Of a DNA stretch of 64,000 nt, positions 27,899 through 29,517 are shown piece after piece. The notes under the pieces were generated by a model. The model made no database searches. It saw only the letters and a list, made by a program, of their open reading frames with translations, and was not told where the DNA came from. This stretch comes from Candidatus Falkowbacteria bacterium (GTDB lineage: Bacteria > Patescibacteriota > Patescibacteriia > Patescibacteriales > UBA12465). Each line of letters opens with the position of its first letter. Within the stretch, counting starts at the first letter, position 1. Made by a program: the position numbers and the translations under genes. The DNA is taken from NCBI GenBank assembly GCA_037137655.1, contig JBAXJX010000001.1, forward strand, positions 33,188-97,187, in the 5' to 3' direction.

Positions 27899-29506
27899 AT
27901 GCTAATCAACAAAAAATGTATCATCTATTGCCGTGTGTCCTCTAAAGAACAAGAGGACAGAGGCTATTCTTTGGAGGCTCAAGAGGGCTTACTTAAGGGT
28001 TATGCCGAGAACAAAGGTCTCGATGTCGTTAAGATATTTAAAATTACTGAATCGGCCAGTGGCAAGCAGATAAGAAAAATCTTTAACGAGATGTTAAGGT
28101 ATGTTAAGAAAAGCAAAATCAGTATTATCTTGTGCGAAAAAATTGACCGATTGACCAGAAATTTAAAAGACGGTGCCACGGTTAGCGATTGGCTGAACGA
28201 GGACGAAGTTCGGGAAGTCCATTTTGTAAAAGAAAATTTTGTCGTTAATAAAAATACCCGTGCCCATGAAAATTTAGTTTGGGATATGAAAGTCGCCATT
28301 GCCCGCTTTTACACCAATAATTTAAGCGAGGAAGTTAAGAAAGGACAGAAAGCCAAAATTGAATCCGGCTGGATGCCAATGGGGGCTAAATTGGGTTATA
28401 AAATATCCGGCGAAAAAGGTCATAAATTTCAATTAGTAGATGAAAAAACCGCTCCATTTATAAAGCGGATTTTTGAGTTATATAGCACCGGCAATTATAC
28501 TATCAGCCAGTTAGTTCGCAAAATGAAAAAAGAGGGTTTGAAAAATACCACCGGCAAGCCATTGGGTCATAGCAGTTTACATATGATTTTAAGCAATCCT
28601 TTTTATTGCGGTAGCATTAGGTGGAACGGCGAAATATACCAAGGCAAACACGAGCCGATAATCAGCGAGGAAATATTTGATGAGGTTCAAGACAAATTAA
28701 AAAGAAAACTTAAAGCCGGAAAATTTAACACCCATACGCACGTCTTTAAAGGAATGATAAAATGTGGGCATTGCGGTTGTCTTATTACTTGGGAAACACA
28801 GAAAGGCCACCACTACGGCCATTGTAAGGGCTTTAAACCTTGCGATAACAAAGACTACATCCGGCAAGAAAAAATTGAGGAGCAAATTTTTGATTTATTG
28901 GTTAAGGTTGCCCCGAAAAATGAGCGTGTTTTAGAATGGATTAAAAAAGCCTTAAAAGATAGTTTGAAAGATAAAACCGAGTATTCAAAAGAAAAAATTG
29001 AGGCTTTGAAAAAGGGTTTGATTTTAATGGAAAATCGACTTGATAAAATTTATGAGGATAAATTAGACAGCGTTATTTCGGCTGATTTTTTTAATAAGAA
29101 ATTCAAAGAATATACCTCTGAAAAAGAAAAGATAAACAAAGAGATGAGTAAATTTAGCCAAGGAGGTAATGAATATTACGAGGCCGGCATTGCTATCCAT
29201 GACCTCGCATACAGAGCTAAAGACATATATTTGAGTAATAAGGCGACTGATGATGATCGTCGCTTATTATTGAGCTATGCGTTCTCAAAAATGACTTTAA
29301 CCAATGGCGTGCTTACTACTGAATATTCACCGGCTTTTGAATTTTTAAGTAAATTTATGGACAGGCTAAACGCCACTTCCGAACCTGTAATTTTTGGCTC
29401 ATATTACAGAAAAGCAGACGCTTTCGCGACTGCTTATCCTGATTTGCTCGGGGACAGGGACTCGAACCCCGATCGACGCCTTCAAAGGGCGCTGTCCTAC
29501 CATTAG
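27899..29506 (+). CDS. Large serine recombinase (phage integrase type)
   Basis: N-terminal resolvase catalytic domain (IIYCRVSSKEQ..GYSLEAQ), a recombinase domain, a zinc ribbon (CGHCGCLITWETQKGHHYGHC) and a long coiled-coil region. The last 60 nt (29447-29506) are antisense to tRNA-Gln. Confidence 0.88.
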   Translation: MLINKKCIIYCRVSSKEQEDRGYSLEAQEGLLKGYAENKGLDVVKIFKITESASGKQIRKIFNEMLRYVKKSKISIILCEKIDRLTRNLKDGATVSDWLNEDEVREVHFVKENFVVNKNTRAHENLVWDMKVAIARFYTNNLSEEVKKGQKAKIESGWMPMGAKLGYKISGEKGHKFQLVDEKTAPFIKRIFELYSTGNYTISQLVRKMKKEGLKNTTGKPLGHSSLHMILSNPFYCGSIRWNGEIYQGKHEPIISEEIFDEVQDKLKRKLKAGKFNTHTHVFKGMIKCGHCGCLITWETQKGHHYGHCKGFKPCDNKDYIRQEKIEEQIFDLLVKVAPKNERVLEWIKKALKDSLKDKTEYSKEKIEALKKGLILMENRLDKIYEDKLDSVISADFFNKKFKEYTSEKEKINKEMSKFSQGGNEYYEAGIAIHDLAYRAKDIYLSNKATDDDRRLLLSYAFSKMTLTNGVLTTEYSPAFEFLSKFMDRLNATSEPVIFGSYYRKADAFATAYPDLLGDRDSNPDRRLQRALSYH

Positions 29507-29517
29507 ACGATCCCCGA
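29447..29517 (-). tRNA. tRNA-Gln (anticodon UUG)
   Basis: Minus strand, folded by hand. Acceptor TCGGGGA / TCCCCGA (U1-A72, discriminator G73, as in bacterial tRNA-Gln). D arm GTCT..GGAC. Anticodon arm GCGCC-CTTTGAA-GGCGT. T arm CGGGG-TTCGAGT-CCCTG. No CCA is encoded. Confidence 0.88.

What the first reader, a model, noticed from the sequence alone, without database searches (positions are those of the whole stretch)
29400..29517. The integrase ORF reads 60 nt into the antisense of tRNA-Gln, and the element supplies a replacement terminator hairpin for the tRNA
The serine recombinase frame stays open across the element/tRNA junction. Its last 20 codons (..GDRDSNPDRRLQRALSYH) are antisense to tRNA-Gln. 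The integrase C-terminus must therefore differ between the integrated and excised states, and the crossover site lies inside or at the very end of int. On the minus strand, about 12 nt downstream of the tRNA 3' end, the element carries GCAGTCGC-GAAA-GCGTCTGC followed by TTTTC (plus-strand 29415-29434). This is a GNRA-loop terminator-like hairpin embedded in the int coding sequence, which could restore tRNA 3'-end formation after integration.
Basis: partly seen in the sequence, partly recalled or inferred. Interest (0 to 1): 0.6.

Follow-up and report, generated by a model that had tools for sequence, protein, structure and literature searches.

The report
Serine integrase gene spanning a tRNA attachment site
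A 15-kb filamentous-phage-like element sits at the very 3' end of a tRNA-Gln gene; its serine integrase gene runs across the attachment site, so integration swaps the enzyme's tail and puts an element-borne terminator hairpin behind the tRNA.

Summary
ORF 27899-29506 (+) is a 535-aa large serine recombinase. Its last 18 codons plus stop are antisense to tRNA-Gln(UUG) (29446/7-29517, -).

attL lies at 14393-14400. There a host terminator hairpin is followed by TTTGCTCG and a conserved P' arm. The same 8 bp occur at attR (29443-29450).

- The element is 15,050 bp.
- The crossover lies in GCTC, which is tRNA nt 71-74, so the whole tRNA is host DNA.
- Rejoining the ends gives a 542-aa integrase with the tail AYKDDFRTFSNVNIGNIKQLLLLII. 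That tail type is conserved in homologues found in the attP state.

About 40 homologous loci in Patescibacteria MAGs do the same thing in the same frame, at tRNA-Gln or tRNA-Asn genes.

The hairpin at 29412-29435 is conserved across the family with compensatory changes and a T-run on the tRNA-sense strand. Empty sites carry a native terminator at the same place, and in the window that terminator is now 15 kb away.

Precedents exist: Dehalococcoides DsiB at ssrA, Mx8 IntP, and SSV integrases. I therefore call this a new variant of a known kind. Terminator function and any regulatory role of the tail swap are inferred, not shown.

The parts
14359..14391 (-). Native host terminator of tRNA-Gln, now displaced. 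It forms the B arm of attL: A-run, hairpin GACTCAAT-AAA-ATTGAGTC (14366-14384), then a 7-T run. It is bidirectional and also lies downstream of the + strand gene 12793-14331.
   Evidence: Sequence read. The reconstructed attB reads tRNA..CCCCGAGCAAACAAAAAAAGACTCAATTTTATTGAGTCTTTTTTT. Empty tRNA-Gln sites in metagenomes have the same layout.
14393..14400 (+). attL identity block TTTGCTCG. The core GCTC is at 14396-14399.
   Evidence: Found with the family P' motif. An exact 8-bp repeat of 29443-29450.
14400..14477 (+). P' arm of attP plus the coding segment for the excised-state integrase tail (25 codons, AYKDDFRTFSNVNIGNIKQLLLLII, TAG at 14475-14477). It contains the TTCCGAAC motif.
   Evidence: The same motif follows int directly in attP-state loci L027 and L097, and marks attL in L023, L028, L042, L046, L049, L053 and L063.
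14401..29450 (+). Integrated element, 15,050 bp; the ends are defined only to within the 8-bp repeat. Contents: DUF5655 protein (14486-15388, -), type III restriction Res helicase (15396-17963, -), N6/N4 DNA methylase (17975-19981, -), LexA/S24 repressor-like protein (20111-20719), 595-aa protein (23051-24838), Zot/pI-like ATPase (25235-25903), ArdC-N protein (25955-26251, -), G2P-type rolling-circle Rep (26829-27560), and int.
   Evidence: Pfam scans. Low G+C and reversed GC skew over 14-20 kb. Related elements L001, L022 and L096 have the same gene order.
27899..29506 (+). Prophage-state large serine integrase gene, 535 aa. Residues 1-517 are element-encoded. Codon 517 (CTC, 29447-29449) lies in the core. 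Residues 518-535 are antisense tRNA.
29410..29435 (-). Element-borne terminator-like hairpin inside int codons about 505-513. On the minus strand it reads AAGCAGTCGC-GAAA-GCGTCTGCTT, followed by TTTT (29413-29410).
   Evidence: Fold z = -4.65. Family covariation: 92% of cells paired, 6 of 10 pairs with compensatory changes, 0 of 500 shuffles as good. The T-run is on the tRNA-sense strand only.
29443..29450 (+). attR identity block TTTGCTCG. The core GCTC is at 29446-29449, equal to tRNA C74, G73, A72, G71. The probable central dinucleotide is TC (29448-29449).
   Evidence: The geometry argument uses PMC3783163.
29446..29517 (-). tRNA-Gln(UUG), complete and host-derived. It is the B' arm of attB. 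The T-arm GGGACTCGAAC provides the TCGAAC motif 12 nt from the core.
   Evidence: The tRNA sequence varies from just beyond the core among hosts that carry the same element, while the P arm stays constant.
29572..29600 (-). Promoter-like site (TTAACA-17-TATAAT, 11 of 12 matches) upstream of the tRNA. Host DNA. It would drive transcription towards the hairpin.
   Evidence: consensus match only.

Best explanation
The window holds a 15-kb inovirus-like integrative element in a Patescibacteria (Falkowbacteria-like) chromosome. A large serine integrase inserted it by attP x attB recombination. The crossover lies in the 4-bp core GCTC at the extreme 3' end of tRNA-Gln (nt 71-74), so the tRNA stays entirely host-encoded and no tRNA fragment is duplicated.

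attP lies inside the int reading frame.
- In the circular form, int encodes 542 aa. A roughly 22-residue linker, which the nucleic-acid signals occupy, is followed by a conserved 25-35-residue tail of the form AWRDxFRTFDW...QxLLxL.
- Integration moves the tail-coding DNA to the far end of the prophage (14400-14477). Translation then runs into antisense tRNA until the first stop.

The host side of attB is recognised through the T-arm. The motif TCGAAC lies 12 nt from the core in the tRNA and 17 nt from it in the P' arm. This is the 5-bp attB/attP offset described for zinc-ribbon-domain motifs of serine integrases.

Integration also separates the tRNA from its own terminator. The element therefore carries a hairpin plus T-run in the last about 35 codons of int, read on the opposite strand. 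That hairpin ends tRNA transcription about 40 nt past the gene and keeps tRNA read-through out of the prophage.

Shown: both junctions, the core, the two int forms, the family-wide pattern, and conservation of the hairpin. Inferred: terminator activity, T-arm recognition by the zinc ribbon domain, TC as the exact dinucleotide, and any functional effect of the tail swap.
For: Family pattern. Among the int homologues from MAGs (79 loci fetched) and the window, the int frame reads into tRNA-Gln in 20 loci (stop 61-63 nt inside) and into tRNA-Asn in 18 (stop 40 nt inside in most), in one register (..LL-GDRDSNP.. or ..LL-PGSDSNRRPIG*).

Junctions.
- attP-state loci read int..TTGCTCG-CTTGGCGGGACAGCTTTCGAAC (L027, L097).
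- The same P' motif lies 2.5-10 kb upstream of int behind host hairpins in L023, L028, L042, L046, L049, L053 and L063.
- In the window it lies at 14396, with the 8-bp repeat TTTGCTCG.
- No copy of any tRNA part occurs elsewhere in the window.

Metagenome scan. It returned 16 empty tRNA-Gln sites and 7 more attR junctions of the same int next to different tRNA-Gln alleles (UUG and CUG). Variation begins just beyond the core.

Tails. Reconstructed tails are conserved. At least 13 of the 120 best database homologues carry the attP-state tail. In an AlphaFold model of the attP-state homologue P0081, the fold is confident to about residue 491, residues 493-513 have pLDDT below 50, and the tail is helical at pLDDT 52-70.

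Hairpin. z = -4.65. Covariation: 92% paired against 40-66% in slid controls, and 33 compensatory cells against 10.4 in shuffles. With a crude detector, a T-run follows the hairpin in 21 of 37 junctions on the tRNA-sense strand and in 4 of 37 on the int-sense strand.

Geometry. With TC as centre, CTTTCGAAC occupies +16..+24 in P' and the T-arm motif +11..+19 in B'. These match the LI integrase ZD-motif positions in PMC3783163.
Against: - No empty site or circular form of this exact host and element pair was recovered, so the window's attB and attP are reconstructions.
- The window's hairpin has a T.T mismatch and only four T's, and the simple terminator scan missed it.
- The P arm and the B arm show no clear mirror image of the TCGAAC motif. 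Dyad scoring could not separate GC, CT or TC as the centre.
- Conservation of the first half of the tail (AWRDxFRTF) could reflect DNA-level constraint on the P' arm rather than protein function.
- Many prophage-state genes stop 2-3 codons after the core, and the globular fold is untouched. The swap may therefore have no effect on activity.
Confidence: 0.8

Rival explanations
1. The layout is real but functionally neutral. The crossover happens to lie upstream of the int stop, the tail is dispensable, and the read-through into the tRNA is noise. The hairpin is ancestral host terminator DNA picked up with the att region, and int later extended through it.
For: Prophage-state tails vary from 2 to 20 residues, and in-frame stops occur right after the core in many loci (..LLRG*..LPR*). 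The region coded by the hairpin and P arm is predicted to be disordered. McMurdie et al. also listed a trivial explanation for the equivalent overlap of dsiB with ssrA (PMC3146451).
Against: The distal half of the excised-state tail (..QxLLxL*) lies 70-100 nt from the core, outside any normal attP, yet it is conserved at the protein level across 40-60% identical integrases. The hairpin keeps pairing through compensatory changes together with a strand-specific T-run. That indicates continuing selection, whatever its origin.
Confidence: 0.3
2. This is classical tRNA integration. The crossover lies inside the tRNA (T-loop or anticodon loop) and the element supplies the 3' part of the gene, as tyrosine-integrase islands do.
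For: The element lies on the 3' side of a tRNA. Between the window and L001 the tRNA differs most in the anticodon stem. For Dehalococcoides DsiB the insertion point was placed in the tmRNA T-loop with a 20-bp repeat (PMC3146451).
Against: No displaced tRNA fragment exists at attL or anywhere else in the window. attP and attB share only 4-9 bp. T-loop and acceptor-stem bases vary among hosts that carry an identical P arm. attP-state loci carry no tRNA-like sequence after the core apart from the spaced TCGAAC motif.
Confidence: 0.03
3. The conserved hairpin is not a tRNA terminator. It is instead a signal for the element itself: part of the attP P arm, an int mRNA element, or a single-strand DNA signal of the filamentous phage.
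For: The hairpin lies 14-37 nt from the core, inside the span of a serine-integrase P half-site. Its loop, TTTC or TTTT on the plus strand, resembles part of the TTTCGAAC motif. It is present in the circular state too, where no tRNA is nearby.
Against: Stem sequences differ freely between close relatives while pairing is kept. That pattern is the reverse of sequence-specific protein recognition. The T-run is on the tRNA-sense strand. Its distance from the tRNA end copies that of native terminators at empty sites. It travels with the int family, whereas an inovirus-type gene set was confirmed only for the close relatives.
Confidence: 0.12

Closest known systems
Dehalococcoides ssrA-specific genomic islands with the serine recombinase DsiB (McMurdie et al. 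2011, PMC3146451)
   Same: A serine recombinase of about 540 aa sits at the island end next to a tRNA-like target, the tmRNA 3' end. Its ORF runs about 70 bp antisense into the RNA gene. The authors already suggested that the gene may be fully functional only on the circular element.
   Different: The target there is tmRNA, not tRNA. The inferred insertion point is in the T-loop with a 20-bp repeat; here it is at nt 71-74 with a 4-8-bp repeat. A second small recombinase, DsiA, is co-encoded there, and none was found here. No replacement terminator and no conserved excised-state tail were described. Homology between DsiB and this family was not tested.
Myxophage Mx8 IntP/IntX (tyrosine integrase; Tojo et al. 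1996 and Magrini et al. 1999, as summarised in PMC6070905)
   Same: attP lies inside the int coding sequence. Integration creates a recombinant int with a new 3' end and changes the properties of the enzyme, which is read as a lysogeny switch.
   Different: The recombinase family is unrelated (tyrosine). Here only about 25 residues after a disordered linker are exchanged.
SSV-type archaeal integrases (PMC7253208; PMC4383910)
   Same: The element's recombination site lies inside the integrase ORF (PMC7253208).
   Different: These are tyrosine recombinases, and integration splits the gene into two parts and inactivates it (PMC7253208). Here the globular enzyme stays intact.
Canonical large serine integrases (Listeria A118/LI, Bxb1, phiC31; PMC3783163)
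   Same: The domain set is the same: resolvase, recombinase and zinc ribbon domains with a long coiled coil. The identity block is very short, and a shared distal motif is shifted 5 bp between attP and attB.
   Different: From my own knowledge, not checked here: those enzymes target protein-coding genes and their attP lies outside int. Hudson et al. [quoted passage not shown]
Ralstonia filamentous phage phiRSM resolvase-like serine recombinase (Askora et al. 2011, cited in PMC7192596)
   Same: A filamentous phage that integrates through a serine recombinase. From my own memory, not checked here, its attB is the 3' end of a tRNA-Ser gene.
   Different: It is a small resolvase-type enzyme without the large C-terminal domain. 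No overlap of the gene with attP is known to me.

Membership tests
Large serine recombinase / serine integrase | N-terminal resolvase catalytic domain with the catalytic serine, followed by a recombinase domain and a zinc ribbon domain | tested here: met
   Pfam PF00239, PF07508 and PF13408 all score above their cut-offs. R12, V13 and S15 are invariant in 38 homologues.
Large serine recombinase / serine integrase | Long coiled-coil insertion in the zinc ribbon domain | tested here: met
   The AlphaFold model of homologue P0081 has helices 339-386 and 392-442 between the zinc-ribbon strands, at pLDDT 75-95. The window protein itself was not modelled.
Large serine recombinase / serine integrase | Short att sites that share little more than a central dinucleotide, with no long duplication of the target | tested here: met
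   The identity block is 8 bp in the window and 4 bp (GCTC) in the Asn-type loci. No tRNA fragment is duplicated.
Large serine recombinase / serine integrase | A distal (ZD) motif shared by attP and attB half-sites and shifted 5 bp towards the centre in attB | tested here: inconclusive
   Met for the P' and B' arms: TCGAAC lies 17 nt versus 12 nt from GCTC. No clear counterpart appears in the P or B arms, and the dyad centre is ambiguous.
tRNA-integrating islands of the tyrosine-integrase type (Islander signature) | attP carries a tRNA fragment, so the integrated island is flanked by an intact tRNA and a displaced tRNA fragment | tested here: not met
   No tRNA-derived repeat was found even with up to 3 mismatches or with blastn-short. 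attL carries only TTTGCTCG.
Integrases whose ORF spans attP (Mx8 IntP type) | The crossover lies inside the int ORF, so the prophage and circular forms encode different C-termini | tested here: met
   The reconstruction gives 542 aa versus 535 aa. Both states are seen among database homologues.
Integrases whose ORF spans attP (Mx8 IntP type) | The two forms differ in activity or specificity | not testable with these tools
   Needs biochemistry. The only indirect evidence is the conserved distal tail motif.
Dehalococcoides DsiB / ssrA-GI integration module | Sequence homology to DsiB or CcrB, a partner small recombinase DsiA, and a 20-bp ssrA repeat | not tested
Among the element ORFs scanned against Pfam, only int matched a resolvase domain. 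The repeat is 8 bp, not 20.
Intrinsic (factor-independent) terminator | A stable G+C-rich hairpin followed directly by a U-tract on the transcribed strand | tested here: inconclusive
   Window: -18.5 kcal/mol, z = -4.65, but a T.T mismatch and only UUUU, and it was missed by the pattern scan. Family: a 10-bp stem with a 4-nt loop and 4-7 T's, with covariation. Termination itself was not measured.
Inovirus (filamentous phage) | pI/Zot-type morphogenesis ATPase, a rolling-circle Rep, and small coat protein genes in a compact module | tested here: inconclusive
   Zot scores 5e-9 and REP_ORF2-G2P 2e-20. The same module occurs in the 6-9-kb relatives L001 and L096. Coat proteins were not identified, and PHROGs was not run.

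The most novel reading that the evidence does not exclude
The tail exchange acts as a built-in state sensor for a serine integrase. The circular form makes a full-length enzyme whose conserved C-terminal helices tune coiled-coil or zinc-ribbon behaviour for integration. The prophage makes a tail-less enzyme with altered directionality, stability or activity. The prophage form is also expressed against convergent tRNA transcription.

In addition, the family reads the universal T-arm sequence as its zinc-ribbon motif and tolerates an unconserved second half-site. It would then be a natural set of tRNA-3'-end-targeting serine integrases, and possibly a source of enzymes with ready-made landing sites in many genomes.
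Probability: 0.2. Interest if true: 0.8.

Novelty: new variant of a known kind. Interest (0 to 1): 0.6.

Why it matters
[quoted passage not shown] This locus and about 40 relatives show a whole family in Patescibacteria doing so. Their solution differs from that of tyrosine integrases: they cut at the last bases of the tRNA, leave the gene intact, and replace the displaced terminator with one hidden in the integrase's own coding sequence.

The family offers three things.
- A compact case of one DNA stretch serving as coding sequence, attP arm and, on the other strand, a terminator-like hairpin.
- A testable case of a serine integrase whose protein changes with integration state.
- Precisely mapped attP, attB, attL and attR sets for many related enzymes, which is the raw material used to develop integrase tools.

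It also shows why repeat-based prophage finders, which require direct repeats of at least 10 bp or tRNA fragments, would miss these elements.

Tried and rejected
- Repeat searches for a displaced tRNA fragment found nothing (repeat finder; pattern with 3 mismatches; blastn-short). That absence later made sense.
- I first took P0001/L001 (527 aa, ending ..DSNPD*) for an excised form. It is another integration into a tRNA-Gln allele that happens to contain an earlier stop.
- I took the tails ..RPIGYTYPLVS as possible attP forms. They are read-through into group I introns inside the target tRNA.
- L096/P0017 looked like a circular genome. It has no terminal overlap, its left 1.7 kb is unrelated to its integrated relative, and its junction (GCTCG, 12 nt, TCGAAC) looks like a non-tRNA pseudo-attB.
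- The IMG/VR scan gave only 13 loci, mostly cut at int. The junction pattern found nothing in viral contigs.
- Dyad-symmetry scoring of 13 attP and 9 attB reconstructions did not fix the central dinucleotide.
- My crude detector for a hairpin followed by a T-run undercounts, because A/T extensions pair with each other. I rely instead on the covariation count.
- No circular attP or empty attB of this exact element and host pair turned up. L113 carries the right P' arm but is an attL with an odd host flank.
- Literature searches for Patescibacteria with prophage, serine recombinase and tRNA returned nothing.
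Full report
**1. What is at the coordinates**

ORF 27899-29506 (+) encodes a 535-aa protein. It matches Pfam Resolvase, Recombinase and Zn_ribbon_recom, so it is a large serine recombinase.

ARAGORN and Rfam both call tRNA-Gln(UUG) on the minus strand at 29446/7-29517. The ORF's last 18 sense codons (GDRDSNPDRRLQRALSYH) and its TAG stop are antisense to the tRNA.

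The hairpin is present at 29412-29435. On the minus strand it reads AAGCAGTCGC-GAAA-GCGTCTGCTT and is followed by TTTT. It has one T.T mismatch. MFE is -18.5 kcal/mol and z = -4.65. A generic terminator scan did not call it.

**2. The element**

Upstream genes include a Zot/pI-like ATPase, a G2P-type rolling-circle Rep, an ArdC-N protein and a LexA/S24 repressor-like protein. Further left lie a type III restriction helicase, a DNA methylase and a DUF5655 protein, all on the minus strand. That region has low G+C and reversed GC skew.

Close relatives with 96% identical integrase (contigs L001-L003, L017) carry the same phage-like module.

**3. The family**

The integrase has about 1,900 database homologues at E <= 1e-10. 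Those that carry a source name are mostly labelled Patescibacteria groups. Their C-termini looked like translated antisense tRNA: DSNP is the antisense of the T-loop.

I fetched 79 genomic loci and combined tblastn with ARAGORN.
- In 20 loci, including the window, int reads into tRNA-Gln (UUG or CUG). The stop lies 61-63 nt past the tRNA 3' end.
- In 18 loci int reads into tRNA-Asn(GUU). In most of them the stop lies 40 nt past the tRNA 3' end.
- In both groups the reading register relative to the tRNA is the same.
- Several loci have an in-frame stop 2-3 codons after the junction. The antisense-tRNA residues are therefore not a selected peptide.
- Other odd tails (..RPIGYTYPLVS) are read-through into group I introns in the target tRNA (Rfam RF00028 in L077 and L058).

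**4. The crossover**

- Two loci, L027 and L097/P0003, have int followed not by a tRNA but by GCTCGCTTGGCGGGACAGCTTTCGAAC...
- The same motif lies 2.5-10 kb upstream of int in integrated loci L023, L028, L042, L046, L049, L053 and L063. In most of them a host hairpin with a T-run precedes it. These are attL sites.
- A relaxed pattern found the window's attL at 14396. It reads AAAAAAAGACTCAATAAAATTGAGTCTTTTTTTGTTT-GCTCG-CGTATAAGGATGATTTCCGAACTTTT.
- attL and attR share exactly TTTGCTCG (14393-14400 and 29443-29450), which makes the element 15,050 bp.
- In the Asn-type loci, attP and attB share only GCTC. This equals tRNA G71, A72, G73 and C74.
- No part of the tRNA is duplicated anywhere in the window.

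A degenerate junction pattern scanned against metagenomes returned 38 contigs.
- Sixteen are empty tRNA-Gln sites with a native terminator hairpin directly after ..GAGCAAAT.
- Seven are further attR junctions of the same integrase next to different tRNA-Gln alleles. In these the P arm is constant, and variation starts 5 nt beyond the core GCTC.

The tRNA is therefore host DNA, and the crossover lies at its last bases.

**5. Two forms of the integrase**

Joining 27899-29450 to 14401 onward gives a 542-aa ORF ending ..YPDLL-AYKDDFRTFSNVNIGNIKQLLLLII*.

Seven other loci reconstructed the same way give ..L-AWRD(S/A)FRTFDW..(14-17 aa)..QxLLxL*. At least 13 of the 120 best database homologues occur in this attP state with such tails.

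The first half of the tail overlaps the P' arm, so DNA-level constraint may explain its conservation. The distal motif lies 70-100 nt from the core and is conserved as protein.

An AlphaFold model of attP-state homologue P0081 shows three regions.
- The fold is confident up to about residue 491.
- Residues 493-513 have pLDDT below 50. This stretch is coded by the hairpin and the P arm.
- The tail contains short helices at pLDDT 52-70.

Integration therefore removes a small appended tail and leaves the enzyme core intact.

**6. Site geometry**

TCGAAC lies 17 nt from GCTC in P' and 12 nt from it in the tRNA T-arm. If TC is the central dinucleotide, CTTTCGAAC occupies +16..+24 in P' and the T-arm motif occupies +11..+19 in B'. 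These are the positions of the zinc-ribbon-domain motif in the attP and attB of Listeria LI integrase (PMC3783163).

The P and B arms show no clear mirror motif, and dyad scoring could not choose between GC, CT and TC. This step is inference.

**7. The hairpin**

At about 30 of the 37 distinct int-type junctions, the tRNA-sense strand has a roughly 10-bp stem with a 4-nt loop starting 11-13 nt after the tRNA, followed by 4-7 T's.

On an ungapped alignment of 19 diverse sequences:
- 92% of cells pair, against 40-66% when the partner columns are slid.
- Six of 10 pairs show compensatory changes.
- There are 33 compensatory cells, against 10.4 in shuffles.
- None of 500 shuffles reaches the observed values.

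The amino acids coded there change together with the stem (KTGAFAPA, KTGSFEPA, KTEAFASA, KESTFVPS). With a crude detector, the T-run follows the hairpin in 21 of 37 junctions on the tRNA-sense strand and in 4 of 37 on the int-sense strand.

Empty sites have native terminators at the same distance. The window's own native terminator now lies at 14359-14391. The replacement-terminator reading is the best supported one, but termination was not measured.

**8. Comparison with known systems**

- McMurdie et al. described a roughly 540-aa serine recombinase (DsiB) whose ORF overlaps the 3' end of ssrA. They raised the same idea about the circular form (PMC3146451).
- Mx8 int spans attP and changes its 3' end on integration (PMC6070905).
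- SSV integrases also span attP (PMC4383910; PMC7253208).
- Hudson et al. stated that serine recombinases were not known to target tRNA genes (PMC4383910).
- A filamentous phage, phiRSM, with a small serine recombinase is cited in PMC7192596.
- I found no description of this Patescibacteria family.

**9. Verdict**

The finding is confirmed and extended. It is a new variant of a known kind: a serine-integrase prophage whose int gene spans attP. Three features are unusual.
- The target is tRNA nt 71-74.
- The tail exchange is conserved across the family.
- A terminator is embedded in the coding sequence.

My confidence is about 0.8 in the structural account, about 0.6 in terminator function, and about 0.2 in a regulatory role for the tail swap.

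Noticed in passing
L077:6194-6419 (-), L058:1663-1954 (-); similar text in L023, L024, L026, L037, L041, L042, L044, L054: The target tRNA genes of many related elements carry a group I intron in the anticodon loop (Rfam RF00028 at 98.5 and 58.7 bits). ARAGORN misses these tRNAs, and the integrase ORF reads on into the intron (..RPIGYTYPLVS).
   Followed up: partly
L098 (-) about 1484-1575 and L114 (-) about 385-470: A scar of about 83 bp between a host terminator and tRNA-Gln. It consists of the attL core, 15 nt of P', the last roughly 70 nt of int (including the hairpin), and attR. It looks like deletion of a whole element between the P' motif TTCCGAAC and an identical direct copy, ACTTCCGAAC, in the int codons for ..NATSE..
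   Followed up: partly
window 29354-29363 (ACTTCCGAAC, int codons ..ATSEP..): The int coding sequence holds a direct copy of the P'-arm motif about 80-90 nt upstream of the core. It is conserved in the family as KLNATSEL. It could be an accessory site or only a coding coincidence.
   Followed up: no
L113:640-720: An attL of a related element (its Rep and int regions are 81% identical to the window). Its host-side flank ends in TTATCCTGATTT, identical to the last 12 nt of the P arm. This suggests integration into a site that already carried a remnant of an earlier element.
   Followed up: partly
L096:8935-9059 (same as L005): A 99% identical pair of contigs in which int is followed by GCTCG, 12 nt, then TCGAAC, with no tRNA. 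This is the attB-type spacing in non-tRNA DNA, so it may be a pseudo-attB insertion.
   Followed up: partly
L048 (int copies ending near 11557 and 19806); L101 (-) 5280 and 8171: L048 has two integrase copies in one locus, one in the attP-like state and one at tRNA-Asn. L101 has two attL-like sites 3 kb apart behind the same duplicated host hairpin. These look like tandem or nested insertions.
   Followed up: no
window 14486-19981 (-): The left third of the element is cargo: a type III restriction Res helicase, an N6/N4 DNA methylase and a DUF5655 protein. This region has the lowest G+C in the window (0.27-0.31).
   Followed up: partly
window 29528-29542 and 29572-29600 (-): A hairpin with a T-run (TGCCTTTTACGGGCA TTTTTT) lies between the promoter-like site of the tRNA and the tRNA 5' end. 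On the plus strand it could stop int transcripts that have crossed the tRNA.
   Followed up: no
window 29667-31235, about 52500, about 53860, about 63710 (+): Four paralogous genes with a type IV pilin-like N-terminus (FTLIELLVV). Repeat family D1 shows 63-74% DNA identity over 288 nt. The first copy has internal repeats of about 150 nt rich in G, Y and N.
   Followed up: no
window 1596-4831: 23S rRNA (1596-4604) and 5S rRNA (4717-4831) have no 16S gene in the 1.6 kb upstream. ORFs with repeated domains lie at the window start (858-nt repeat, families D7 and D10).
   Followed up: no
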